Below, piece by piece: positions 3,447 through 25,063 of a stretch of DNA of 27,453 nucleotides (positions are counted from its first letter, which is position 1; each line of letters begins with the position of its first letter). This stretch comes from a virus. The notes under the pieces were generated by a model that had not been told where the DNA came from, searched no databases, and was given only the letters and a program-made list of their open reading frames with translations. Location: UHGV virus genome UHGV-1341913; one strand, 5' to 3'. A program made the translations under genes and the position numbers.

Positions 3447-3473
3447 GAGGACTCCTTCGGGAGTCCTTTTTTA
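3447..3473 (+). terminator. rho-independent terminator (UUCG-loop hairpin plus T-run)
   Basis: GGACTCC-TTCG-GGAGTCC stem-loop directly followed by TTTTTT, just after the 30.9 stop. Confidence 0.7.
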
Positions 3474-3496: not shown

Positions 3497-3526
3497 GTTT
3501 ACAGTATGATTCCTTTGTGATAGTAT
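3497..3526 (+). promoter_or_regulatory. T4 early-type promoter (GTTTAC -35, TAGTAT -10)
   Basis: GTTTAC at 3497..3502, 18-nt spacer, TAGTAT at 3521..3526, upstream of the 3554 ORF. Confidence 0.5.
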
Positions 3527-3553
3527 TATCTTACACAAACAAAGGAGAATAAA

Positions 3554-3886
3554 ATGAAAACGATTAATCTGAACGCTGCAGTTAAAACTAAATGCTTCAA
3601 TGGTAAATATGATGAAACTATGTGGTTCTTAATGGCAGTTGAAGGTGATATCATTGAAGTAGAAACAACAGAAGGTATGGGAACAGATTTCACCTTTACA
3701 ATTCAAGTTCATAATTTCTTTACTGGTTGGATTTATGAATTGAATACAATAATCGTTGGAAAAATTGAACAAAATGAATTAGGTGAATGGTATTATGTTA
3801 CAGCTCGCCAACGTGCCGAACGCTTAATTGAGAAGATGAAAAAAGTTGGTAAACTTGACATGCAGCATTGGAAAGTAGTAAAATAA
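3554..3886 (+). CDS. hypothetical early protein (30.8 position)
   Basis: 110-aa ORF with RBS aaaggaga before the ATG. Confidence 0.6.
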   Translation: MKTINLNAAVKTKCFNGKYDETMWFLMAVEGDIIEVETTEGMGTDFTFTIQVHNFFTGWIYELNTIIVGKIEQNELGEWYYVTARQRAERLIEKMKKVGKLDMQHWKVVK

Positions 3887-3888
3887 TT

Positions 3889-3917
3889 GTTTACTTTGGT
3901 ACAGGATATGATATTAT
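3889..3917 (+). promoter_or_regulatory. T4 early-type promoter (GTTTAC -35, TATTAT -10)
   Basis: GTTTAC at 3889..3894, 17-nt spacer, TATTAT at 3912..3917. An 8-bp inverted repeat GGTACAGG / CCTGTACC (3898..3905 and 3921..3928) brackets the -10 element. Confidence 0.55.
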
Positions 3918-3941
3918 ATACCTGTACCGCAATTAAACATC

Positions 3942-4319
3942 TTGGAGAATAAAATGAACTACATTAACTTTGAACGTAAATATGTTTCTAACGGTATTGC
4001 AGGTTCTATTGATACTATCTGCCTTTGGAAACATCAAAATGGATCAGTATGCGAAATTGAACAGTATATGACTCCTAACTACGTTTATATGCGATTTGAA
4101 AATGGCATCACGGTTTCAATCACGAAAGAAGGTTCTTCTTTTAAAATCGCTCTGGATGATGATTTCCGTCAACGTGATTTAGGGACTCATCCTTGCTGGA
4201 ATGGCGTCAATCGTAAACTTCTGGTTAAAACTTGGATTCGTCATATTCTGAGTAACAGAGCTAAACCTGAGCATCTTGAAGCAATCTTTGATGTAGTTCT
4301 TAACGAATTTGATATTTAA
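3942..4319 (+). CDS. hypothetical early protein (30.7 position)
   Basis: 125-aa ORF with RBS ggaga. Confidence 0.6.
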   Translation: MENKMNYINFERKYVSNGIAGSIDTICLWKHQNGSVCEIEQYMTPNYVYMRFENGITVSITKEGSSFKIALDDDFRQRDLGTHPCWNGVNRKLLVKTWIRHILSNRAKPEHLEAIFDVVLNEFDI

Positions 4320-4327
4320 AATAAAAT

Positions 4328-4345
4328 GAGGGGCTTCGGCCCCTT
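4328..4345 (+). other. stable UUCG-tetraloop RNA hairpin (no T-run)
   Basis: AGGGGC-TTCG-GCCCCT between 30.7 and 30.6. It is not followed by a U-tract, so it is more likely an mRNA-stabilising or processing hairpin than a terminator. Confidence 0.5.
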
Positions 4346-4360
4346 ACTGAGGAAAATACT

Positions 4361-4648
4361 ATGTTTATGACTACTTATTTTGATACCCGCAAAAATTTCT
4401 GTGAAGTGGTTTTCTCTAAGGCGCCTAAAGATCTTCCTGCTCATTTGCAACCTACCAGCGAATCGATTAAAAACTACGTTAATGTAGTATGTCCTTTAGA
4501 GTTCCGTACTGTAAATGGGCGCGATACTTTAGCTATCACTAAACTCAATCGTGAAATTGACATTGACCCTTCAATTGCGTGTGAAATTAACATTTCTGAT
4601 ATTGGCGGCGGTAATGTTAAATCGCACGGTTTTCAGATGAGGTTCTAA
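4361..4648 (+). CDS. hypothetical early protein (30.6 position)
   Basis: 95-aa ORF with RBS gagg. Confidence 0.6.
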   Translation: MFMTTYFDTRKNFCEVVFSKAPKDLPAHLQPTSESIKNYVNVVCPLEFRTVNGRDTLAITKLNREIDIDPSIACEINISDIGGGNVKSHGFQMRF

Positions 4649-4845
4649 TGAAATTCTTTTTAGGTCAAACTGTTGAATTAAAGGGAGTTGGTATACCTGG
4701 ATTAATTTCTAAGGTTCTACCTCCATTTAAATGGAGTGGTATTCAAATAAAAGAGGCTTATATTGTTTCCTGGGTAGATGGAAATGAAGACCTTCGTATG
4801 GGCGATGAATTATCTCCTATTTACGGATTAAAGGAATTAGTATGA
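4648..4845 (+). CDS. hypothetical early protein (30.5 position)
   Basis: 65-aa ORF, start overlaps upstream stop (TAATG). Confidence 0.5.
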   Translation: MKFFLGQTVELKGVGIPGLISKVLPPFKWSGIQIKEAYIVSWVDGNEDLRMGDELSPIYGLKELV

Positions 4846-5048
4846 ATATAATTAATAAGATTTTTGGAATTCAGTATATTAAGGTCACATATAAAGTAAC
4901 AGATAAAAATCCATATACTGATGAACATGAAGAACCACAAGTTGAGTCTATTATATTAGAAAAGGACCCTAACTGGCCAGTTGAATTTCGTCTTCCTTGC
5001 TATGGTCATTGGGCTGATGTTGAAATTATAAGTATTGAAAATGTCTGA
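4842..5048 (+). CDS. hypothetical early protein (30.4 position)
   Basis: 68-aa ORF with ATGA overlap to the upstream ORF. Confidence 0.5.
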   Translation: MNIINKIFGIQYIKVTYKVTDKNPYTDEHEEPQVESIILEKDPNWPVEFRLPCYGHWADVEIISIENV

Positions 5049-5499
5049 GCTAGAGATAAGAAGCAATTTTAAATGGCCATCATGCGCATTAAGTAATTTC
5101 GCCCAATGGCCTTTCGTTATGGATGGTATTCAATTTGGAGGTCTCGAAGGATTCCTCCAAGGATGCAAGGTGAAAAATGTTGAACAGCAACGTCGTATAT
5201 TTGGGTTATCCGGGCTTGCCGCCCAACAAGCTGGAAGGTCTTGTGCTAGAGCTCAGGACCGTGGGACCCTCTTTTGGCTTGGAGTTCCGTTTTCAAGATA
5301 CTCACCGGCGTGGAAAGAATTATACACAAATGCATATTTTGAAGCAGCGTTCCAAAACAAGGGCTTTCGTGATGCATTACAAGCCTCGAAAGGAAAAGTT
5401 TTGAAGCACAGCATGGCTAGTGGTCTAACAAAAGATGATACAATACTAACCGAAGCTGAATTTATTGATGTGTTAAACCTATTAAGAGACTCTCTATGA
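5035..5499 (+). CDS. NADAR / YbiA-like (DUF1768) domain protein (30.3 position)
   Basis: 154-aa ORF. The segment LSNFAQWPFVMDGIQF...EGFLQ resembles the FSNFAAWPIKVDG...EHYFQ core of E. coli YbiA (NADAR family). The central part of the gene is conspicuously GC-rich (62 of 120 nt G+C over 5161..5280 by hand count). Confidence 0.6.
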   Translation: MKMSELEIRSNFKWPSCALSNFAQWPFVMDGIQFGGLEGFLQGCKVKNVEQQRRIFGLSGLAAQQAGRSCARAQDRGTLFWLGVPFSRYSPAWKELYTNAYFEAAFQNKGFRDALQASKGKVLKHSMASGLTKDDTILTEAEFIDVLNLLRDSL

Positions 5500-6335
5500 A
5501 GCCAACTATTTTGACTGATATTGATGGAGTATGTTTAAGCTGGCAATCAGGACTTCCTTATTTTGCTCAGAAATATAATCTTCCGTTAGAACATATTTTA
5601 AAAATGATCCAAGATGAGAAATTTATTTCTCCAGGTAAACTCTTTAATTGTGATGAAGAACTTGGCGTCAAGTTAATTGAAAAATACAATCGATCAGATT
5701 TTATTCGTTACTTGTCTCCATATAAAGATGCCCTGTGTGTAATTAACAAATTAAAAGAAGATTATAATTTTGTAGCTGTTACAGCATTAGGTGATTCTAT
5801 TGACGCTCTGTTGAATCGTCAATTTAATTTGAATGCTCTTTTTCCTGGTGCCTTCTCAGAAGTAATGATGTGTGGTCATGATTCTTCAAAAGAAGAGCTG
5901 TTCAAAAAGGCAAAAGAGAAGTATAACGTAATTTGTTATATTGACGATCTTGCTCACCACTGCGACCACGCGAGTGAAATATTAAATGTTCCGGTTTATT
6001 GGATGGCTCGAGGAGAGCGTGACAATATTCCAAAAACTGCGCAGCGAGTTTATACATGGAATGATGTAGAAAATAAGCTTTTTTCGCCGAAGGAAAATAA
6101 AGAAAGTTTTGATAGTGAAAAAGCTATAAAAGATTTAATTGAGAAGATGGTTAAAAACGATTCTTTTCCTTGGAACACTACCTGGAGAACGCCTGGATTT
6201 AATCCTTATAATCATCTATATCATCCATATCAGACACATCCGTTTCAGACATGGAACTACATTAAACCTGGTGGCATAGAGTATTTGTATAATAGACCTA
6301 CTAGCGGTGATAATATTTTCCAAGGAGCATTCTAA
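5496..6335 (+). CDS. HAD-like hydrolase domain protein (30.2 position); putative phosphatase or nucleotidase
   Basis: 279-aa ORF. N-terminus TILTDIDGVCL fits HAD motif I (hhhhDxDx[T/V]), and a later YIDDLAHH fits the acidic motif IV. Functional call is an inference from motifs only. Confidence 0.5.
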   Translation: MKPTILTDIDGVCLSWQSGLPYFAQKYNLPLEHILKMIQDEKFISPGKLFNCDEELGVKLIEKYNRSDFIRYLSPYKDALCVINKLKEDYNFVAVTALGDSIDALLNRQFNLNALFPGAFSEVMMCGHDSSKEELFKKAKEKYNVICYIDDLAHHCDHASEILNVPVYWMARGERDNIPKTAQRVYTWNDVENKLFSPKENKESFDSEKAIKDLIEKMVKNDSFPWNTTWRTPGFNPYNHLYHPYQTHPFQTWNYIKPGGIEYLYNRPTSGDNIFQGAF

Positions 6336-6604: not shown

Positions 6605-8061
6605 TTCTTAAAATTCTGAATGAAATAGCATCTATTGGATCAACTAAGCAGAAGCAAGCAATTCTTGAAAAGAATAAAGATAATGAATTGCTTAAACGAG
6701 TATATCGTCTGACTTATTCTCGTGGGCTACAGTATTATATCAAGAAATGGCCTAAACCTGGTATTGCTACCCAGAGTTTTGGAATGCTGACTATTACCGA
6801 TATGCTGGACTTCATTGAGTTCACGTTAGCTACTCGGAAATTAACTGGCAATGCAGCAATTGAGGAATTAACTGGATATATCACTGATGGTAAAAAGGAT
6901 GATGTTGAAGTTTTGCGTCGAGTTATGATGCGAGATCTTGAATGCGGTGCTTCAGTATCTATTGCAAATAAAGTTTGGCCAGGTTTAATTCCTGAACAAC
7001 CTCAAATGCTGGCAAGTTCTTATGATGAAAAAGGCATTAATAAGAATATCAAGTTTCCAGCCTTTGCGCAGTTAAAAGCAGATGGAGCTCGGTGTTTTGC
7101 TGAAGTCCGAGGCGATGAATTAGATGATGTTCGTCTTTTATCACGAGCTGGTAATGAATATCTAGGATTAGATCTTCTTAAGGAAGAGTTAATCAAAATG
7201 ACTGCAGAAGCCCGCCAGATTCATCCAGAAGGTGTGTTAATCGATGGCGAATTAGTATACCATGAGCAAGTTGAAAAGGAGCCAGAAGGCCTAGATTTTC
7301 TTTTTGACGCTCCTGAAATCAGTAAAGCTAAAGAGTTTTCCGAAGTAGCTGAATCACGTACTGCTTCTAATGGAATCGCCAATAAATCTTTAAAGGGAAC
7401 TATTTCAGAAAAAGAAGCTCAATGCATGAAGTTTCAGGTCTGGGATTATGTCCCATTAGTAGAAATATATGGTCTTCCGGCGTTTCGTTTAAAATATGAT
7501 GTACGTTTTTCTAAACTAGAACAAATGACATCAGGATATGATAAAGTAATTTTAATTGAAAACCAGGTAGTAAATAACCTAGATGAAGCTAAGGTAATTT
7601 ATAAAAAATATATTGACCAAGGTCTTGAAGGTATTATTCTCAAAAATACCGATGGATTGTGGGAAAATGCTCGTTCAAAAAATCTCTATAAATTTAAAGA
7701 AGTAATTGATGTTGATTTAAAAATTGTAGGAATTTATCCTCACCGTAAAGACCCTACTAAAGCAGGTGGATTTATTCTTGAATCAGAGTGTGGAAAAATT
7801 AAAGTAAATGCTGGTTCAGGCTTAAAAGATAAAGCCGGTGTAAAATCGCATGAACTTGACCGTACTCGCATTATGGAAAACCAAAATTATTATATTGGAA
7901 AAATTCTAGAGTGCGAATGTAATGGTTGGTTAAAATCTGATGGCCGCACTGATTACGTTAAATTATTTCTTCCGATTGCGATTCGTTTACGTGAAGATAA
8001 AACTAAAGCTAATACATTCGAGGATGTATTTGGTGATTTTCATGAGGTAACTGGTCTATGA
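6601..8061 (+). CDS. 30: ATP-dependent DNA ligase
   Basis: 486-aa ORF with the adenylation motif KADGAR (lysine in QLKADGARCF). Sequence recognised as T4 DNA ligase (MILKILNEIASIGSTKQKQAILEKNKDNELLKRVYRLTYSRGLQYYIKKW...). Confidence 0.95.
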   Translation: MILKILNEIASIGSTKQKQAILEKNKDNELLKRVYRLTYSRGLQYYIKKWPKPGIATQSFGMLTITDMLDFIEFTLATRKLTGNAAIEELTGYITDGKKDDVEVLRRVMMRDLECGASVSIANKVWPGLIPEQPQMLASSYDEKGINKNIKFPAFAQLKADGARCFAEVRGDELDDVRLLSRAGNEYLGLDLLKEELIKMTAEARQIHPEGVLIDGELVYHEQVEKEPEGLDFLFDAPEISKAKEFSEVAESRTASNGIANKSLKGTISEKEAQCMKFQVWDYVPLVEIYGLPAFRLKYDVRFSKLEQMTSGYDKVILIENQVVNNLDEAKVIYKKYIDQGLEGIILKNTDGLWENARSKNLYKFKEVIDVDLKIVGIYPHRKDPTKAGGFILESECGKIKVNAGSGLKDKAGVKSHELDRTRIMENQNYYIGKILECECNGWLKSDGRTDYVKLFLPIAIRLREDKTKANTFEDVFGDFHEVTGL

Positions 8062-8246
8062 AAGCTTACTTAGAAACAATTGTCGTGGCTCAAAAAGAAG
8101 GTGGAGATGTTTCTACTTCTGTATCACAAATTATGATTGAATTTATAGATGCATATGCTTATAATAAATTCACAGAAACATTTGATACCTATGAAAAAGG
8201 TCCAAAGTTTGAAATATATCGTACTCTCTTACCAATAGATTATTAA
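8058..8246 (+). CDS. hypothetical protein
   Basis: 62-aa ORF overlapping the ligase stop (ATGA) and ending at a terminator-like hairpin. Confidence 0.45.
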   Translation: MKAYLETIVVAQKEGGDVSTSVSQIMIEFIDAYAYNKFTETFDTYEKGPKFEIYRTLLPIDY

Positions 8247-8262
8247 AGGCCTTCGGGCCTTT
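8245..8262 (+). terminator. UUCG-loop hairpin, possible terminator or RNA-stability element
   Basis: AAAGGCC-TTCG-GGCCTTT followed by AATTTT, separating the early ligase operon from the late alt promoter. Confidence 0.5.
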
Positions 8263-8267
8263 AATTT

Positions 8268-8275
8268 TATAAATA
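8268..8275 (+). promoter_or_regulatory. T4 late promoter TATAAATA (alt)
   Basis: Exact TATAAATA about 20 nt upstream of the alt ATG. Alt is a virion-packaged late protein in T4. Confidence 0.65.
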
Positions 8276-8295
8276 GAATAAACACTAGAGAGGAT

Positions 8296-10392
8296 ATGAT
8301 GGAACTCATTACAGAATTATTTGACGAAGATACTACTCTTCCGATTACAAACTTAAATCCAAAGAAGAAAATACCGCAAATTTTTTCAGTTCATGTTGAT
8401 GACGCAATTGAACAACCAGGCTTTCGTTTGTGTACCTATACATCTGGAGGTGATACTAATCGCGATTTAAAGATGGGCGATAAAATGATGCATATTGTTC
8501 CTTTTACATTAACTGCTAAAGGTTCAATTGCTAAATTAAAAGGTCTCGGTCCAAGCCCAATTAATTACATCAATTCAGTTTTTACTGTTGCAATGCAAAC
8601 GATGCGTCAGTATAAAATTGATGCCTGTATGCTCCGTATTCTTAAGTCTAAAACTGCTGGTCAAGCTCGTCAAATTCAACTTATTGCTGATAGACTTATC
8701 CGCAGTCGTTCAGGTGGCAGATACGTCCTTCTTAAGGAACTCTGGGATTACGATAAAAAGTACGCATATATTCTTATACATCGCAAAAATGTATCATTAG
8801 AAGACATTCCAGGAGTTCCGGAAATTAGTACAGAGCTCTTTACTAAAGTTGAATCGAAGGTCGGCGATGTTTATATCAATAAAGATACCGGAGCTCAAGT
8901 AACTAAAAATGAGGCCATTGCAGCATCTATTGCGCAAGAAAACGATAAACGTTCTGACCAAGCTGTAATCGTTAAAGTTAAAATTTCCCGTAGAGCAATT
9001 GCACAAAGTCAATCATTAGAATCTTCTAGATTTGAAAGTGAATTATTCCAGAAGTATGAATCTACCGCAGCTAATTTCAATAAACCTGCTACCGCTCCTT
9101 TAATTCCCGAAGCAGAAGAAATGAAACTTGGAATTAATTCATTAGCTTCTAAAACCAAGGCAGCAAAAATTATTGCCGAAGGAACCGCAAATGAACTTCA
9201 TTATGATTATAAATTCTTTTCAAAAAGTGAGGTTGATGAAGTTTCTGAAAAGATTAAAGATGTAATTCTTAATGCGATTAAAAATGAACCAACTACTTCA
9301 ATAAAATGTTTAGAGAAATACGCAGCAGCTGTTAATCAATTCTTTGAAGAATATAAAGATAATTGGCTTGATAAACACAATAAAACTCGTAAAGGACAGA
9401 CAGATGAAGTCTGGGAAGAAATAACTAAAAATTCCTGGAACGCAGCAAAAACTAAATTCCTCAAAAGAATGATTTATAGCTTTTCTGGAATTGGTGCAGG
9501 TCCAATGATTGATATTACTATTGCCCGCGATGGTTCTAAATATACTCCATCACAAAAGCGCGGCATTAGAGAGTATTGTGGTTCAGGATATACTGACATC
9601 AATAATCTTCTTTTAGGACGCTACAATCCAGAACGATATGATGTAATGAGTGAAAAAGAAATTGAATCTGCGATAAATAATTTAGATTCAGCCTTTGAAA
9701 ATGGTGACCGTATACCAGAAGGCATTACAGTTTATCGTGCTCAAAGCATGACTGCTCCTATATACGAAGCACTAGTTAAAAATAAAGTGTTCTATTTCAG
9801 AAATTTTGTATCTACTTCTTTAACTCCTATCATTTTTGGACGTTTTGGAATTACGCATGCTGGTATTGGTCTTTTAGAACCAGAAGCTCGTAATGAATTG
9901 ACAGTTGATAAAAATGAAGAAGGAATAACTATTAATTCAAACGAAATAAGAGCGTATAAAGAAAATCCCGAATACGTTAAAGTTCAAATAGGATGGGCAA
10001 TTGATGGAGCTCATAAAGTTAATGTTGTATATCCAGGAAGCCTCGGAATAGCAACAGAAGCTGAAGTTATTCTACCACGCGGATTGATGGTCAAAGTTAA
10101 TAAAATAACTGATGCTTCTAATAATGACGGAACAACATCTAATAATACAAAACTCATTCAAGCTGAAGTTATGACTACGGAAGAACTCACTGAATCAGTA
10201 ATTTATGACGGTGACCGTCTAATGGAAACTGGTGAAGTAGTTGCAATGACAGGTGATATTGAAATAGAAGACAGAGTTGACTTTGCATCATTTGTTTCAT
10301 CAAATGTTAAACAAAAAGTAGAATCATCTCTTGGAATTATTGCATCTTGCATAGATATTGCAAGCATGCCTTACAAGTTCATTCAAGGATAA
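8296..10392 (+). CDS. alt: ADP-ribosyltransferase Alt (virion-packaged; modifies host RNA polymerase)
   Basis: 698-aa ORF (an alternative start at 8299 gives MELITELF, the T4 Alt N-terminus as I recall it). C-terminal region carries the R-S-E class ART motifs: YRAQ, FVSTSL, EAEVILPRG. RBS agagagga. Confidence 0.88.
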   Translation: MMELITELFDEDTTLPITNLNPKKKIPQIFSVHVDDAIEQPGFRLCTYTSGGDTNRDLKMGDKMMHIVPFTLTAKGSIAKLKGLGPSPINYINSVFTVAMQTMRQYKIDACMLRILKSKTAGQARQIQLIADRLIRSRSGGRYVLLKELWDYDKKYAYILIHRKNVSLEDIPGVPEISTELFTKVESKVGDVYINKDTGAQVTKNEAIAASIAQENDKRSDQAVIVKVKISRRAIAQSQSLESSRFESELFQKYESTAANFNKPATAPLIPEAEEMKLGINSLASKTKAAKIIAEGTANELHYDYKFFSKSEVDEVSEKIKDVILNAIKNEPTTSIKCLEKYAAAVNQFFEEYKDNWLDKHNKTRKGQTDEVWEEITKNSWNAAKTKFLKRMIYSFSGIGAGPMIDITIARDGSKYTPSQKRGIREYCGSGYTDINNLLLGRYNPERYDVMSEKEIESAINNLDSAFENGDRIPEGITVYRAQSMTAPIYEALVKNKVFYFRNFVSTSLTPIIFGRFGITHAGIGLLEPEARNELTVDKNEEGITINSNEIRAYKENPEYVKVQIGWAIDGAHKVNVVYPGSLGIATEAEVILPRGLMVKVNKITDASNNDGTTSNNTKLIQAEVMTTEELTESVIYDGDRLMETGEVVAMTGDIEIEDRVDFASFVSSNVKQKVESSLGIIASCIDIASMPYKFIQG

Positions 10393-10395
10393 ATC

Positions 10396-12453
10396 ATGGA
10401 ACTTATTACAGAATTATTTGACGGCGCTTCGGCGCCGGTTGTTAACTTAAATCCTAAGCATAAAATACCTCAAATTTTTGCTATTCAAGCCGGTGAAGAA
10501 AGCGTGCTTCCTGGATTTAGATTTTGTACATACACCTCCGGTGGTGATACAAATAAAAACGTTAAGCCAGGCGATAAAATGATGCATATCGTAATGATAG
10601 GTGTCAATGAGAAACTATCATTAGTTAAACTTAAAAACTTGGGTGGAAATCCAATTGGTGTCATTAATGCGGTTTTTGATACTGCTCTTCAAACAATGAA
10701 ACAGTATAAAATTGACGCATGCCTATTCCGCGTACTAAAAAGTAAAACAAATGGCGCTGCTCGTCAGATGCAAGTTATTGCTGACCGTTTAGTACGTACT
10801 AAAGGAGCAGGTCGATATGTTCTTTTAAAGGAAATCTGGGATTACGATAAAAAGTATGCATATATTATGGTTTACCGTAAAAATGCCAATTTAGAAGACA
10901 TTCCAGGTGTACCTCCTATTTCAACTGAGTTATTCACAAAAGTTGAATCAAAGGTTGGTGATGTTTATGTAGATGTTAAAACAGGTAATGCTGTTCCTAA
11001 AGCTGTTGCTGTTGCTGCTTCTATTGCTTTAGAAAATGATAAGCGCACGGATCAAGCTGTTATTCAGAAAACTAAAATTAGTCGTCGATTAGCAGCACAA
11101 GCTCAATATTCTACTGTCGATGCTTCGCTACAGGGTGATAGCTTCGCTGCCAAGAAATATCAAGAGTTTGAATCTAAAGTTCCGGTATATAAAGCAGAAG
11201 GACCAATGAACTCTGGCGTTATTCAGATTGGTTCCAACTTCAGCAAAGGAGCTATCGGTGGTATGAGAAGTGCTTCTCGTTTTAAATCTAACGATTATGA
11301 ACTAGAAAGCTTCCGAAATCATATTGCATTGGCCCATGCACGTTTACGTGATCCGTCTATCAGACTGCAGAGCGATATAACACATCAAGGTTCTCAAGAA
11401 TATTTAAAGAATAAAGAATTTTTTGATTATAAAACCGATAAAATTTTGAGCGATCTCGCTGACATTAATATTTCTAATAGCTTTGATGTTATTAAGAAAA
11501 TTATCAATGATTTAGTTAAAGGTTCTAAAGCCACACCAGACGAAAAGGTAGCTATTATTCAATTTGTCATGAATGGCATTTATAAATTGATTAATGAATC
11601 TGCTGCTCAGGCATATGAATATGCAAGCACCGAAGTAACTCCAAAAGGACTGACTCAGGCTGAGTCTGATGTAATTGAAGATTATTGTGCAGATTCATAT
11701 GTTGAAATGAACTCGTTCCTCTTGGGTAAACCAGATTCTACCCGTGAAGAATACATGGAACGAGCTATTAAACACATCGAGACGCTGGATTCTGCATTCG
11801 CCAAAGGATCAGTTCTTCCTCCAGGAACTACGCTTTATCGTGGGCAAGAAGTTACTTTTAAAACTTTACGTCATAATATTGAAAATAAAATGTTCTATTT
11901 CAAGAACTTCGTATCCACGTCGCTTAAACCAAATATCTTCGGTGAGCATGGTAAAAACTATATGGCTCTAGATGATTCCGGCGCAGTATTTTCTGGTGAA
12001 GGAGAAGGTTCTGTTGATGCTGAAGATTTAATGCATATGGGTAGTCATTCTGCATATGCTAATGAAGATGCTGAAGCTAGCGTAGGTATGGTAATTAAAG
12101 GGGCTGAGCGAATCAAAGTTATCGTTCCAGGTCATTTATCAGGATTTCCATCAGAAGCTGAAGTTATTCTACCGCGTGGAATTTTGTTGAAGATTAATAA
12201 AGTAAGCACGTACATGATGAAAGAAACTGCCTATAACAAGTATCTAATCGAAGGCACAATCGTTCCTCCTTCTGAACAATTAGAAGAATCGGTATATGAT
12301 GGCGATCATCTAATGGAAACTGGTGAAGTTCGTCCAATGGCTGGGTTTAATCAATTCCTTGTAGAAGAATCAAAAGAAGAGGAAACTGAAGTTTCTCAAA
12401 TCTTGGCTTCTTTGGTTAACATCAACGGAATGTCTAAAAAGTTCAAGATGTAG
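10396..12453 (+). CDS. Alt-like ADP-ribosyltransferase paralog (intact second copy)
   Basis: 685-aa ORF starting 3 nt after the alt stop. The N-terminal ~230 aa are clearly homologous to Alt (MELITELFDG..., KIPQIF, GFRFCTYTSGGDTN, KQYKIDAC, GRYVLLKE, WDYDKKYAYI). ART motifs retained: YRGQ, FVSTSL, EAEVILPRG. Confidence 0.8.
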   Translation: MELITELFDGASAPVVNLNPKHKIPQIFAIQAGEESVLPGFRFCTYTSGGDTNKNVKPGDKMMHIVMIGVNEKLSLVKLKNLGGNPIGVINAVFDTALQTMKQYKIDACLFRVLKSKTNGAARQMQVIADRLVRTKGAGRYVLLKEIWDYDKKYAYIMVYRKNANLEDIPGVPPISTELFTKVESKVGDVYVDVKTGNAVPKAVAVAASIALENDKRTDQAVIQKTKISRRLAAQAQYSTVDASLQGDSFAAKKYQEFESKVPVYKAEGPMNSGVIQIGSNFSKGAIGGMRSASRFKSNDYELESFRNHIALAHARLRDPSIRLQSDITHQGSQEYLKNKEFFDYKTDKILSDLADINISNSFDVIKKIINDLVKGSKATPDEKVAIIQFVMNGIYKLINESAAQAYEYASTEVTPKGLTQAESDVIEDYCADSYVEMNSFLLGKPDSTREEYMERAIKHIETLDSAFAKGSVLPPGTTLYRGQEVTFKTLRHNIENKMFYFKNFVSTSLKPNIFGEHGKNYMALDDSGAVFSGEGEGSVDAEDLMHMGSHSAYANEDAEASVGMVIKGAERIKVIVPGHLSGFPSEAEVILPRGILLKINKVSTYMMKETAYNKYLIEGTIVPPSEQLEESVYDGDHLMETGEVRPMAGFNQFLVEESKEEETEVSQILASLVNINGMSKKFKM
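10422..10437 (+). other. GC-only UUCG-tetraloop hairpin embedded in the coding sequence
   Basis: CGGCGC-TTCG-GCGCCG, a perfect 6-bp G/C stem, lies 26-41 nt downstream of the paralog ATG and encodes G-A-S-A-P. The first alt copy has unrelated sequence at the equivalent position. Confidence 0.5.
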
Positions 12454-12482
12454 TTTACAAGTCCCTCGTGTTGTGTTATAAT
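12453..12482 (+). promoter_or_regulatory. T4 early-type promoter (GTTTAC -35, TATAAT -10)
   Basis: GTTTAC at 12453..12458, then TATAAT at 12477..12482 (18-nt spacer), immediately after the alt-paralog stop and upstream of the 12514 ORF. Confidence 0.55.
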
Positions 12483-12513
12483 AATCTTACTAACATAACA
12501 TGAGGAACACAAA

Positions 12514-12804
12514 ATGAAATCTTCTTTACGCTTTTTAGGTCAAGAACTTGTAGTTGAAGGCGTTATTCCTGCTGATAACGCTTTTAATGAAGCAGTTTAT
12601 GATGAATTTATCAAAATTTTTGGAACAGATAAAAAGTTCGGAATTTTTCCTTCTGAAAATTTTTCAAAGCCAGAACAGACTGAAAGCATTTTCCAAGGTG
12701 TAGTAACAGGTAAATTTGAGTCAGAAGCTCCGGTAAAAATTGAAGTTTATATTGAAGACAGTTTAGTTGCTTCAGTTGCTGCTTTTATTTCATTCCGTAA
12801 ATAA
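12514..12804 (+). CDS. hypothetical protein
   Basis: 96-aa ORF with RBS tgagga, sitting between its own promoter and a bidirectional terminator hairpin. Confidence 0.55.
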   Translation: MKSSLRFLGQELVVEGVIPADNAFNEAVYDEFIKIFGTDKKFGIFPSENFSKPEQTESIFQGVVTGKFESEAPVKIEVYIEDSLVASVAAFISFRK

Positions 12805-12808
12805 AAAT

Positions 12809-12830
12809 ATGGGGACCTTTCGGTCCCCAT
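12809..12830. terminator. bidirectional terminator hairpin between convergent genes
   Basis: ATGGGGACC-TTTC-GGTCCCCAT (9-bp stem) between the + strand ORF ending at 12804 and the - strand gene 54 ending at 12833. Confidence 0.65.
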
Positions 12831-12832
12831 TG

Positions 12833-13798
12833 TTATATTGCTCCTAATATTTTACTTTGCGAATTGACAATTCCTGTCATAGTATTAATGTTTGAAATGC
12901 TTCCAGCAGTTCCCCCTAATCTACTAAGTCGTGAAAGCGAATTAGATAATCCAGTAACGCCTCCACTATTTCCGAGAACGCTTTGAATACCGTTTATAGC
13001 AGCAGATTCAAGCCATTCAAGGGCAGCTTGTCTATCAACTGCTCCAGCCTGCATGACTCTATACGCAAAAGTAACATCAAATGTAGTTATTTGGTTATCT
13101 CCATCATATGATAACTCAGGAGCGCTCACTGACACTGGAATGCATCCGGTGAACATCACTGCAGTATGAGGTAATCCATTACGAGCATGAAGATTAACCT
13201 GAATATCTGCCTCGACATCTTGTGGCAAAGCACGCAGTCCAGTTACTGGGTCTTGAACAGCGTTAACCCAGTCTTGCATTGCACGATAGTTACAAGCTTC
13301 TGAATCCATTCTAAATGAAATAACCAAAGGGTCTAATTCTCTCCCAGTTATACGAATATTAGGAGAGTTATAGTTCCAGTCAGTTTCATAGGATAATCTA
13401 TTCTCTGGCATTTTTACAGAATATATCATCAATCCAGACGAGTTATATGCCATGTTAAAGAAGTCAATTAAATATGTACCGACTGTAAATGAGCCCAATA
13501 AACTTTGAACTGTACGTTGACTCATGGCACCAATAAGATATTTACTAACCCCTGATTTTCTTATCAGTTTTTGTGTGCCAGCAGTAATTAGCGTGGTAAT
13601 TCCCTGATTAATATCGCCTTGAGTCAATCCTAACCAATCTGAATTTAGACCCAAGTTATTATAAGAAAAGTTGCTAATTGAACTTATCAACGAAGAGCTT
13701 TTAGTTGATGGAGTTGTCGCAAAAACGCAGCTAAACATATTATTACGTTGGAAATCTGCGTTTATTGCTTGATTATTAAATTCCTCTAAAGAATACAT
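12833..13798 (-). CDS. 54: baseplate tail-tube initiator
   Basis: 321-aa ORF. Position and length match T4 gp54 in the conserved 54-48-29-28-27-51 block. Start overlaps the gp48 stop. Confidence 0.85.
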   Translation of the reverse strand: MYSLEEFNNQAINADFQRNNMFSCVFATTPSTKSSSLISSISNFSYNNLGLNSDWLGLTQGDINQGITTLITAGTQKLIRKSGVSKYLIGAMSQRTVQSLLGSFTVGTYLIDFFNMAYNSSGLMIYSVKMPENRLSYETDWNYNSPNIRITGRELDPLVISFRMDSEACNYRAMQDWVNAVQDPVTGLRALPQDVEADIQVNLHARNGLPHTAVMFTGCIPVSVSAPELSYDGDNQITTFDVTFAYRVMQAGAVDRQAALEWLESAAINGIQSVLGNSGGVTGLSNSLSRLSRLGGTAGSISNINTMTGIVNSQSKILGAI

Positions 13799-20627: not shown

Positions 20628-20851
20628 TGAGATATAGCATTGATGATGCTTTTAATTATGAAGAAGAATTCGAAACGGAAATTCAATTCTTAATGAAAAA
20701 GTATAATCTTAAGCGTCAGGATATTCGTATCCTGGCCGACCACCCATGCGGTGAAGATGTACTTTATGTTAAAGGAAAATTTGCCGGATATCTTGATGAA
20801 TATTTTTATTCTAAAGATATGGGCATTGATATGCATATGAGAGTTATATAA
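20627..20851 (+). CDS. hypothetical protein (uvsY.-1 position)
   Basis: 74-aa ORF with start overlapping the uvsY stop. Confidence 0.55.
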   Translation: MRYSIDDAFNYEEEFETEIQFLMKKYNLKRQDIRILADHPCGEDVLYVKGKFAGYLDEYFYSKDMGIDMHMRVI

Positions 20852-21344: not shown

Positions 21345-21360
21345 AAGGGCCGAAGCCCTT
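21345..21360 (-). other. UUCG-tetraloop hairpin at the uvsW / uvsW.1 junction
   Basis: Minus-strand AAGGGC-TTCG-GCCCTT overlaps the uvsW stop codon and sits just upstream of the uvsW.1 RBS. Confidence 0.5.
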
Positions 21361-25045: not shown

Positions 25046-25063
25046 AAGGGGCTTCGGCCCCTT
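25046..25063 (+). terminator. UUCG-loop hairpin after hoc (terminator or RNA-stability element)
   Basis: AAGGGGC-TTCG-GCCCCTT followed by T-rich tcttcatttt. The core AGGGGCTTCGGCCCCT is identical to the hairpin at 4329..4344. Confidence 0.55.

What the first reader, a model, noticed from the sequence alone, without database searches (positions are those of the whole stretch)
10422..10437. Very stable UUCG hairpin inside the coding start of the alt paralog, one member of a window-wide hairpin family
Eight GC-clamped tetraloop hairpins occur in the window (3449, 4329, 8245, 10422, 12809, 21345, 25046, 26629), and two share the identical core AGGGGCTTCGGCCCCT (4329..4344 and 25047..25062). Seven are intergenic, as expected for T4 terminators or mRNA 3' stabilisers. 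The eighth, CGGCGC-TTCG-GCGCCG, lies within codons 10-14 of the second alt gene, where the first alt copy has unrelated sequence. It may mark an RNA processing site, set translation of the paralog independently of alt, or be the footprint of the recombination event that created or repaired the second copy.
Basis: seen in the sequence. Interest (0 to 1): 0.4.

Follow-up and report, generated by a model that had tools for sequence, protein, structure and literature searches.

The report
UUCG hairpin just past alt's stop
A very stable RNA hairpin sits 30 bases after the end of the T4-type alt gene, inside the first codons of its tandem twin; it most likely acts as a weak stop or stabilising cap for the alt message, an arrangement already known from two other T4 genes, so it is real but ordinary.

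Summary
CGGCGC-UUCG-GCGCCG (10422-10437, dG about -12.8 kcal/mol) lies in codons 9-14 of the second of two tandem alt genes, far beyond chance. The window is a Tequatrovirus. The first copy (8299-10392) is the T4 alt orthologue. The second (10396-12453) is the intact form of what survives in T4 as the pseudogene pieces alt.-1/alt.-2. T4 carries the identical hairpin.

About 488 Tequatrovirus genomes have it with no stem change. The only variants are one loop point change (UUCA) and three genomes where the loop is exactly reverse-complemented (CGAA). It survives where copy 2 is dead and is lost in phages whose two copies fused. It is absent from the tandem alt pairs of Moonvirus and Dhakavirus. 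An Aeromonas phage has an intergenic UCCG hairpin at the same junction.

The hairpin starts 30 nt after alt's stop, +27 from the next AUG, with a weak U tail. This matches the experimentally shown weak terminator inside the 5' end of T4 mobE (also segF).

Best reading (confidence 0.5, inferred): a partial terminator or 3' stabiliser of alt mRNA that attenuates read-through into the paralog, with Gly-Ala-Ser-Ala-Pro as a coding by-product. It is a new member of a known kind, of low to moderate interest.

The parts
10422..10437 (+). C(UUCG)G hairpin: 6-bp all-GC stem CGGCGC/GCGCCG with loop UUCG. It is translated as the last base of Asp9 plus Gly-Ala-Ser-Ala-Pro (codons 10-14) of alt copy 2.
   Evidence: dG -12.8 kcal/mol, 0/200 shuffles as stable. 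Chance and codon statistics. Stem invariant in 488 Tequatrovirus records.
10438..10449 (+). 3' tail GUUGUUAACUUA: weak, interrupted U tract (4 U in the first 8 nt).
   Evidence: The terminator scan does not call it. T-score 1.46 and d about -23, compared with 0.93 and -29 for the experimentally active T4 mobE internal terminator.
8299..10392 (+). alt copy 1, the orthologue of T4 alt (N-terminus identical to T4 Alt). Its stop codon TAA is at 10390-10392, with 29 nt between the stop and the first base of the hairpin.
10385..10398 (+). Shine-Dalgarno AAGGA (10385-10389) and AUG (10396-10398) of alt copy 2. There is a 3-nt spacer after the copy-1 stop, and the hairpin begins at +27 from the A of AUG.
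   Evidence: Predicted accessibility is unaffected by the hairpin.
10396..12453 (+). alt copy 2 (685 aa), the intact form of the gene whose 5' remnant is T4 alt.-1 plus alt.-2. No TATAAATA late promoter of its own.
8268..8275 (+). TATAAATA late-promoter motif upstream of alt copy 1; the only such motif between 8058 and 12800.
   Evidence: Annotated as a T4-late promoter in phage SA20RB.
8242..8265 (+). Upstream family member, AUUAAAGGCC-UUCG-GGCCUUUAAU, between alt.1 and alt. It bounds the alt transcription unit on the 5' side.
   Evidence: Annotated as a terminator in Ge15, SA20RB and fPS-2. Nolan et al. 2006 (PMC1524935) report a terminator upstream of alt conserved in 5 of 6 genomes.
12454..12482 (+). 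Early-promoter-like site (TTTACA-17-TATAAT with TG) in front of alt.-3. It gives the next gene its own transcription start downstream of the attenuated unit.
   Evidence: T4 alt.-3 RNA is classed 'early' while alt, alt.-1 and alt.-2 are 'middle'.
12809..12830 (.). Bidirectional terminator hairpin between alt.-3 and gene 54; the distal end of the unit.
   Evidence: Annotated in Ge15, SA20RB and fPS-2.

Best explanation
The hairpin belongs functionally to the upstream gene. alt (copy 1) and its tandem paralog are co-transcribed from the late promoter at 8268, plus read-through from upstream. Because only 3 nt separate the two ORFs, the 3'-end structure of the alt cistron had to be placed inside the paralog's first codons.

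Once transcribed, the C(UUCG)G hairpin does two things. With its weak GUUGUU tail it stops a fraction of RNA polymerases, acting as a leaky intrinsic terminator. It also blocks 3'-to-5' exonucleases, so that a stable monocistronic alt mRNA ending about 45 nt past the stop codon accumulates. Less message reaches the paralog. Ribosomes that do read through melt the hairpin and translate it as Gly-Ala-Ser-Ala-Pro, a tolerated replacement of the ancestral E-D-T-T-L-P segment just behind the conserved MELITELFD N-terminus.

Shown: existence, stability, non-randomness, position, invariance of the stem, presence in T4, absence of an own late promoter for copy 2, and the same RNA temporal class for alt and alt.-1/alt.-2 in T4.

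Inferred: termination, stabilisation and attenuation, by analogy with the mapped mobE terminator.
For: (1) Geometry matches the experimentally characterised T4 mobE internal terminator. That element is a stem-loop 27 nt after the AUG of a promoter-less ORF abutting the upstream stop. It has a 4-nt loop and a short U tract; 7 of 11 3'RACE ends map to it, and it terminates about 30% of transcripts early and about 50% late (PMC2790892; review PMC2988022). Here the hairpin is at +27 from the AUG and 30 nt after alt's stop. segF has the same layout.

(2) Its tail score (nT 1.46, d -23) is no worse than that of mobE (nT 0.93, d -29).

(3) The UUCG loop is on the sense strand of alt, like the intergenic family members in the window.

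(4) The sequence is not explained by coding needs: the codons are rare and the exact encoding has probability 4.6e-5 for the five codons, about 9e-6 with GAC.

(5) No stem substitution occurs in 488 genomes. The only variants are in the loop: UUCA in sb1 and the exact loop flip in REP2, REP3 and CT01. Both keep the stem.

(6) The hairpin is intact in every sampled genome where copy 2 is a pseudogene: T4, SG1, fPS-2, PD112 and a metagenome contig. These carry a nonsense codon at position 6 and/or frameshifts plus a 1.7-kb deletion. Whatever keeps it therefore does not need copy-2 protein.

(7) Copy 2 has no TATAAATA of its own. The next gene, alt.-3, has its own early promoter, as nrdB does after mobE.

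(8) In T4 omics data alt, alt.-1 and alt.-2 share RNA class 'middle', while alt.1 and alt.-3 are 'early'. This indicates one unit with leaky passage.

(9) Aeromonas phage 31 independently has a UNCG hairpin (AAGGGCC-UCCG-GGCCCUU) exactly between its two alt copies.
Against: No transcript 3' ends have been mapped at this site, and I found no T4 3'-end dataset.

The U tract is poor. Neither my scan nor the annotators of Ge15 and SA20RB (the latter stating TransTermHP and WebGeSTer) call a terminator here.

Conservation cannot be pinned on the hairpin. The whole stretch 10382-10469 is a low-diversity block: third positions are polymorphic at 2/23 sites against 33/91 downstream (p=0.011). The 5' end of copy 1 shows a milder version of the same pattern (2/24 against 18/72, p=0.14).

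All Tequatrovirus copies are at least 94% identical here and the next relatives (60-66% amino-acid identity) lack the hairpin, so no covariation test is possible.

Moonvirus and Dhakavirus manage tandem alt genes without any junction hairpin. Phages with a fused single alt have lost it and are viable.
Confidence: 0.5

Rival explanations
1. Neutral relic. A one-off mutational event in the Tequatrovirus ancestor (template-switch or quasipalindrome perfection, or capture of a terminator-like hairpin) replaced 18 nt by 15 nt in frame. The hairpin has no present function and is seen everywhere simply by descent, in a slowly evolving, recombination-homogenised 5' block.
For: All carriers are at least 94% identical in this region and form one lineage.

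The flanks from 10382 to 10469 are as invariant as the hairpin.

The hairpin is dispensable: SCS4-type phages with a copy1/copy2 fusion lack it.

Other genera with tandem alt have none.

The loop-flip variants show the inverted repeat is an active substrate for DNA-level template switching.
Against: Across 488 genomes every change hits the loop and none hits the 12 stem bases, including 4 synonymous sites. Both synonymous loop sites do vary.

It is the canonical, extra-stable C(UUCG)G form used at many intergenic sites of the same genome, on the correct strand, and at the distance from a stop codon seen for the functional mobE and segF elements.

It is retained unmutated in the pseudogene lineage, which has acquired nonsense and frameshift changes nearby.
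Confidence: 0.25
2. Translational control of the paralog. The hairpin at +27..+42 slows the first elongating ribosomes or otherwise tunes initiation, lowering or setting the yield of copy 2 relative to alt.
For: The position is within the first 14 codons, and ribosomes must melt a -12.8 kcal/mol stem. The first 25 codons show suppressed synonymous variation. Alt.-1 protein was not detected in T4 proteomics, although it is a 61-aa pseudogene product.
Against: The hairpin lies outside the 30S initiation footprint (established knowledge: it extends to about +15 to +19).

Predicted unpaired probability of SD..AUG is unchanged by synonymous disruption: 0.655 against 0.646, 0.454 against 0.476, and 0.609 against 0.613 in three contexts.

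The hairpin persists unchanged where copy 2 carries a stop at codon 6 or frameshifts, where translation control would be pointless.
Confidence: 0.12
3. RNA processing determinant. The hairpin positions an endonucleolytic cut (for example RNase E in the AU-rich flanks) that separates alt and paralog messages, with the hairpin then capping the new 3' end.
For: AU-rich single-stranded flanks (UUAUUUGA upstream, UUAACUUAAAU downstream) next to a stable stem resemble RNase E contexts. RNase E processing is documented for T4 segB and segG and for Aeh1 mobE transcripts (PMC2988022).
Against: No mapped 5' or 3' ends. The stem is far too short for RNase III, and there is no GGAG for RegB in or next to the hairpin. 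This largely merges with the best explanation, since the stabilising cap is the same.
Confidence: 0.06
4. DNA-level element. The perfect inverted repeat acts in DNA as a cruciform or hairpin, serving as a barrier or hotspot for recombination between the tandem paralogs, or as a nuclease or replication pause site.
For: It interrupts the one stretch where the two copies are nearly identical: 26 of 27 nt before it and 23 of 26 nt after it. Exact loop inversion in REP2, REP3 and CT01 shows intrastrand pairing in DNA occurs.
Against: The documented crossover that fused the copies (SCS4) occurred about 470 nt downstream in another conserved block, and the T4-type deletion starts about 350 nt downstream. 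Neither is at the hairpin. A 6-bp stem is marginal for cruciform extrusion. Strand-specific UUCG identity argues for RNA.
Confidence: 0.05

Closest known systems
Intrinsic terminator inside the 5' coding region of T4 mobE (Wilson & Edgell 2009, PMC2790892), and the similar one in segF (Edgell, Gibb & Belfort 2010, PMC2988022)
   Same: GC-rich stem with a 4-nt loop beginning about 27-45 nt after the AUG of a promoter-less ORF. That ORF abuts or overlaps the stop of the upstream gene and is co-transcribed with it. The U tract is short and weak. The next gene downstream has its own promoter. The hairpin is read through and translated.
   Different: The downstream ORF here is a paralog of the upstream gene, not a selfish nuclease whose toxicity needs limiting. 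The loop is UUCG (mobE UCAG, segF GAAA). The stem is 6 bp rather than 9. Termination is measured for mobE and only inferred here.
C(UUCG)G hairpins of T4 intercistronic regions (Tuerk et al. 1988, PNAS 85:1364; cited from my own knowledge and via PMC3972237)
   Same: Identical loop and closing pair, GC clamp, exceptional stability, sense-strand orientation, and location just downstream of a cistron. Other copies occur in the same window at 3447, 4327, 8242, 25046 and on the minus strand at 21345.
   Different: Those lie 0-11 nt after a stop codon in non-coding spacers. This one is 30 nt after the stop and is translated as part of the next gene.
PeSL (promoter-early/stem-loop) cassettes of T4-type phages (Arbiol et al. 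2010, PMC2839356; Comeau et al. 2014, PMC4122927)
   Same: A stem-loop followed by promoter-like hexamers (TTGTTA-16-TAAAAT at 10439-10466), in a region that shows gene gain and loss between relatives.
   Different: The promoter match is 9/12, at chance level (50 sites found against 50.8 expected). The element is unique in each genome. The observed indel breakpoints are not at it.
Take-off hairpin of T4 gene 60 translational bypass
   Same: A UUCG-capped hairpin inside a T4 coding sequence.
   Different: There is no in-hairpin stop codon, no take-off/landing codon pair and no coding gap. The ORF is continuous and colinear with copy 1 and with Moonvirus homologues.

Membership tests
T4 C(UUCG)G hairpin family | UUCG tetraloop closed by a C-G pair on a GC-rich stem of unusual stability | tested here: met
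   CGGCGC-UUCG-GCGCCG, dG -12.8 kcal/mol, 0/200 shuffles as stable.
T4 C(UUCG)G hairpin family | Intercistronic (non-coding) location on the mRNA sense strand | tested here: not met
   Sense strand: yes. But it lies in codons 9-14 of ORF 10396..12453, which is intact in most Tequatrovirus genomes. In T4 it is effectively non-coding, in the alt.-1 pseudogene.
Intrinsic (Rho-independent) terminators | GC-rich stem-loop immediately followed by a U tract | tested here: inconclusive
   The stem qualifies. The tail GUUGUUAA has 4 U in 8, so the window scan does not call it, and neither do the published annotations of Ge15 and SA20RB. d-score about -23, which is above the functional mobE terminator at -29.
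Intrinsic (Rho-independent) terminators | Transcript 3' ends map to the U tract in vivo or in vitro | not testable with these tools
   No T4 3'-end map was found in the literature library.
Intra-ORF 5' terminators of T4 (mobE/segF type) | Hairpin within roughly the first 15 codons (about +27 to +45) of an ORF that directly abuts the upstream gene | tested here: met
   +27 from the AUG; 3-nt spacer to the alt stop. mobE and segF geometry checked in T4.
Intra-ORF 5' terminators of T4 (mobE/segF type) | Host ORF lacks its own promoter and is co-transcribed with the upstream gene | tested here: met
   No TATAAATA between 8276 and 12453. T4 alt, alt.-1 and alt.-2 share one RNA temporal class, distinct from alt.1 and alt.-3. 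Middle promoters were checked only by eye.
Intra-ORF 5' terminators of T4 (mobE/segF type) | Partial termination (about 30-50%) measured by 3'RACE or RNase protection | not testable with these tools
   Measured for mobE only (PMC2790892).
PeSL recombination cassettes | Stem-loop coupled to a bona fide early promoter, repeated at indel boundaries | tested here: not met
   Promoter-like match at chance level. One copy per genome. Breakpoints lie elsewhere.
Gene 60-type translational bypass element | Stop codon after the take-off codon, matching landing codon, untranslated gap | tested here: not met
   Continuous ORF colinear with paralog and orthologues.
Any curated RNA family (Rfam 15) | Covariance-model match | tested here: not met
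   No hit at E<=1 in 8000-13000, both strands.

The most novel reading that the evidence does not exclude
The hairpin is a regulatory RNA element that was written into a protein: it overwrote six codons of the packaged ADP-ribosyltransferase paralog. It also behaves as a natural flip-flop. Exact inversion of the loop (UUCG to CGAA, Ser to Glu) recurs in unrelated backgrounds (REP2/REP3 from the USA, CT01 from China). This would toggle the extra-stable UUCG cap between the sense and antisense transcripts, and with it the alt-to-paralog expression ratio.
Probability: 0.08. Interest if true: 0.5.

Novelty: new member of a known kind. Interest (0 to 1): 0.25.

Why it matters
If confirmed, it adds a third case to mobE and segF, and the first that does not involve a homing nuclease, of T4 placing a leaky terminator or stabiliser inside the first codons of the next gene when no intergenic space is available. 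Here the element was important enough, or at least tolerated enough, to rewrite the protein's N-terminal segment.

There are practical consequences for annotation. Terminator finders restricted to intergenic DNA miss such sites. T4's 'alt.-1' hairpin is best read as the 3' end of the alt mRNA. Studies of Alt dosage in two-copy T-even phages should expect unequal expression of the two ADP-ribosyltransferases.

It does not open a new class of mechanism.

Tried and rejected
(1) Covariation test. This was impossible. Copy 2 is at least 94% identical in all 486-488 carriers, and the next relatives (Moonvirus, 60-66% amino-acid identity) lack the hairpin.

(2) More diversity from IMG/VR and metagenomes. 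Only 2 and 5 further copies turned up, all identical.

(3) Rfam: no match.

(4) Literature search for T4 transcript 3'-end maps or a mention of this hairpin. Nothing was found. Miller 2003 and Tuerk 1988 are not held.

(5) PeSL cassette idea: rejected. The promoter-like match is at chance level, the element is single-copy, and the breakpoints lie elsewhere.

(6) Bypass or recoding idea: rejected, because the ORF is continuous.

(7) RBS masking or insulation: rejected by partition-function folding. The 101-nt region as a whole is not unusually structured (z -0.78).

(8) The apparent nrdB/denA 'in-ORF' hairpin in T4 turned out to be an artefact of an over-extended RefSeq GTG start. It is really intergenic.

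(9) Retention in pseudogene lineages as independent evidence is weakened. T4, SG1, fPS-2, PD112 and UMIC share one deletion breakpoint, so they represent one lineage with later independent decay.

(10) A whole-genome T4 hairpin census was done only for 50-150 kb. The 1-50 kb and 150-169 kb parts were not scanned, apart from checking segF.
Full report
**What is there**

The window is a Tequatrovirus (T4-like) genome segment, 98% identical over 8200-12900 to phages such as LF73P3 and ime09. At 10422-10437 the plus strand reads CGGCGC-TTCG-GCGCCG.

As RNA, this hairpin folds at -12.8 kcal/mol, and none of 200 dinucleotide shuffles fold as well. An all-GC 6-bp stem with a 4-nt loop is expected 0.007 times per shuffled window. 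Stems with at least 5 GC are expected 0.037 times, against 4 observed.

The element covers the last base of codon 9 and codons 10-14 (Gly-Ala-Ser-Ala-Pro) of ORF 10396..12453. It is built from codons that are rare in this window: GGC 13%, TCG 6%, GCG 8%, CCG 14% and GAC 19% of their synonyms. The exact five-codon encoding has probability 4.6e-5 given the peptide, or about 9e-6 with GAC included (the second figure is my multiplication).

The peptide G-A-x-A-P is itself palindromic at the DNA level: 34% of synonymous encodings give a stem of at least 5 bp. The sensible reading is therefore that the hairpin dictated the peptide, not the reverse.

The seven other hairpins also exist, with small corrections:
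- 12809 has a UUUC loop.
- 26629 has a 3-nt loop.
- 21345 reads UUCG only on the minus strand.

**Gene context**

ORF 8299..10392 has an N-terminus identical to T4 Alt and is the T4 alt orthologue. ORF 10396..12453 starts 3 nt after its stop.

In T4 (NC_000866) the gene order is 30, alt.1, alt, alt.-1, alt.-2, alt.-3. The record itself notes that alt.-1 and alt.-2 are the remains of a duplicated alt 5' part. T4 has exactly the same hairpin at the start of alt.-1. The window thus holds the intact version of a gene that is a pseudogene in T4.

The two copies are old paralogs, with 44% amino-acid identity overall. Around the hairpin, however, they are almost identical: 26 of 27 nt before it and 23 of 26 nt after it. 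The hairpin's 15 nt replace 18 unrelated nucleotides (GAAGATACTACTCTTCCG, encoding E-D-T-T-L-P) in frame.

**Distribution**

A 30-nt query centred on the hairpin finds one copy per genome in about 490 Tequatrovirus records. In a 42-nt comparison of 488 records:
- 430 are identical to the window.
- 55 differ from the window by one or two further positions. In the representatives I aligned, these lie in the flanks.
- One (sb1) has loop UUCA, a synonymous change.
- Three (REP2, REP3, CT01) have the loop exactly reverse-complemented to CGAA, with the stem kept and Ser changed to Glu.

No stem base differs anywhere. CT01 and REP3 differ at about 14 flanking sites, so the flip is either recurrent or has moved by recombination.

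Five sampled genomes with a dead copy 2 (T4, SG1, fPS-2, PD112 and a metagenome contig) share one deletion breakpoint. They carry later independent nonsense or frameshift mutations, and all keep the hairpin.

SCS4-type phages have a single alt that is a copy1/copy2 chimera joined about 470 nt downstream. They have lost the hairpin, so it is dispensable.

Outside Tequatrovirus the picture is mixed:
- Tandem alt pairs exist in Moonvirus (Merlin, Ursula) and Dhakavirus (IME08, EcWhh-1) without any junction hairpin.
- Aeromonas phage 31 has an intergenic AAGGGCC-UCCG-GGCCCUU hairpin exactly between its two copies.

No sequences of intermediate divergence exist, so covariation cannot be tested.

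**Conservation caveat**

In 20 aligned Tequatrovirus sequences the whole block 10382-10469 is nearly invariant. Third codon positions are polymorphic at 2 of 23 sites there, and both are the REP3 flip. Downstream the figure is 33 of 91 (p=0.011). Copy 1 shows a weaker version of the same 5' cold spot, at 2 of 24 against 18 of 72 (p=0.14).

Conservation alone therefore does not single out the hairpin. The pattern 'loop varies, stem never' across 488 genomes is suggestive, not decisive.

**How it probably works**

The only TATAAATA late promoter motif for this region is at 8268, upstream of copy 1. Copy 2 has none. The next gene, alt.-3, has its own early-promoter-like site at 12454-12482, and a bidirectional terminator follows at 12809.

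In published T4 omics data, alt, alt.-1 and alt.-2 share the RNA class 'middle', whereas alt.1 and alt.-3 are 'early' (PMC9697503 Table S2). This fits one transcription unit with passage through the hairpin.

The hairpin begins 30 nt after alt's stop and at +27 from the next AUG. Its tail, GUUGUUAA, is a poor U tract, so neither my scan nor other annotators call it a terminator.

Exactly this layout is documented in T4. mobE is a promoter-less ORF abutting the nrdA stop, and it carries a stem-loop 27 nt after its AUG with a short U tract. 3'RACE (7 of 11 clones) and RNase protection show about 30% termination early and about 50% late (PMC2790892). segF is listed as a second case (PMC2988022).

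I located both in T4. By a d'Aubenton-type score the mobE tail is weaker (nT 0.93, d -29) than the alt hairpin's (nT 1.46, d -23).

A scan of T4 positions 50-150 kb found 14 strong GC-rich tetraloop hairpins in intergenic DNA. After correcting one over-extended RefSeq start (denA), four lie in ORFs: alt.-1 and mobE near an ORF's 5' end, plus two not explained here, in segD and nrdA.1.

I therefore read the element as the 3'-end structure of the alt cistron: a leaky terminator and/or exonuclease block that also attenuates transcription into the paralog. It sits inside the paralog's coding start because no spacer exists. Confidence is 0.5, and the termination or stabilisation step is inferred, not shown.

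**Rivals**

- Neutral relic kept by descent (0.25). This is favoured by the single-lineage distribution, the hairpin's dispensability and its absence from other genera. It is disfavoured by the canonical C(UUCG)G form on the correct strand, the loop-only variation, and retention in the decaying pseudogene lineage.
- Translational tuning of copy 2 (0.12). This is disfavoured because the predicted accessibility of SD..AUG is unchanged by synonymous disruption, and because the hairpin persists where copy 2 has a stop at codon 6.
- Processing site (0.06) and DNA-level recombination element (0.05). Both remain possible but have no specific support.
The duplication is far older than the hairpin, and the real breakpoints lie elsewhere.

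**Verdict**

This is a real, non-random element present across Tequatrovirus, including T4 itself. Its kind is already known (T4 C(UUCG)G hairpins; intra-ORF 5' terminators of mobE and segF), so it is a new member of a known kind. Interest is 0.25.

The most novel surviving reading concerns the natural loop-inversion polymorphism. It might act as a switch that moves the UUCG cap between strands and changes a residue of the protein. Its probability is about 0.08.

Noticed in passing
L011 (REP3, OQ174502.1) 2608-2623; L032 (CT01, OK018184.1) about 314-329; corresponds to window 10422-10437: Three of 488 Tequatrovirus genomes (REP2, REP3, CT01) carry the hairpin with the loop exactly reverse-complemented: GGCGC-CGAA-GCGCC, changing Ser to Glu. 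This is the signature of inversion by intrastrand template switching at a perfect inverted repeat. CT01 and REP3 differ at about 14 nearby sites, so the flip is recurrent or has been transferred.
   Followed up: partly
window 20715-20736 (T4 NC_000866 114807-114824, minus strand): A second UUCG hairpin inside an ORF: GUCAGGAUA-UUCG-UAUCCUGGC, -12 kcal/mol. It lies in uvsY.-1, about 90 nt after the uvsY stop.
   Followed up: partly
window 8299-12453; L013 (SCS4, ON506924.1) 3501-5561: Three haplotypes of the alt locus circulate in Tequatrovirus. The first has two full copies. The second has alt plus a 350-nt remnant of copy 2 (T4, SG1, fPS-2, PD112), from a single deletion running from window ~10743 to the alt.-3 promoter, followed by independent nonsense and frameshift decay. 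The third has one chimeric alt (copy 1 aa 1-157 joined to the copy 2 remainder), made by unequal crossover in the conserved GRYVLLKE.WDYDKKYAYI block.
   Followed up: yes
L029 (Aeromonas phage 31, AY962392.1) 2968-2998: An intergenic UNCG-type hairpin, AAGGGCC-UCCG-GGCCCUU, sits exactly between the two tandem alt paralogs of a Biquartavirus. It is followed directly by the GGAG Shine-Dalgarno of the second copy.
   Followed up: no
T4 NC_000866 137935-137951 (L035): The RefSeq denA CDS starts at a GTG that lies inside the nrdB/denA terminator hairpin (TGGGCC-GCAA-GGCCCA followed by UUUUAUUAUG). The ATG eight codons downstream gives the 136-aa protein I recall for endonuclease II, so the annotated start looks over-extended.
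   Followed up: partly
window 4329-4344 and 25047-25062; T4 69291-69306 (minus strand): The identical 16-nt core AGGGGC-UUCG-GCCCCU recurs at three or more unrelated intergenic sites: 30.7/30.6, hoc/24.3 and e.6/e.5. In T4 the 30.7/30.6 copy has loop UUCA instead of UUCG.
   Followed up: no
window 10382-10469 and 8299-8375: The first ~25 codons of both alt copies are a cold spot for synonymous variation across Tequatrovirus. Copy 2 has 0 point changes at third positions, against 36% of third positions polymorphic downstream. The first 9 codons (MELITELFD) are 26/27 nt identical between paralogs that are otherwise 44% identical in protein. Possible causes are selection on the N-terminal packaging/cleavage signal, on the translation start region, or gene conversion.
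   Followed up: partly
window 21345-21360 (minus strand): The UUCG hairpin AAGGGC-UUCG-GCCCUU overlaps the uvsW stop codon and is followed directly by GGAG and the start of uvsW.1. This is the junction where the original T4 sequence wrongly fused the two ORFs (resequencing reported in PMC1524935).
   Followed up: no
T4 NC_000866 107037-107054 and 142862-142881 (L035): Two further strong tetraloop hairpins lie inside T4 ORFs and are not explained here: TCTCCTC-AGAT-GAGGAGA in segD, and an 8-bp stem, TGGCAGCC-GGGA-GGCTGCCA (minus-strand reading), about 70 nt after the nrdA.2 stop, within nrdA.1.
   Followed up: no
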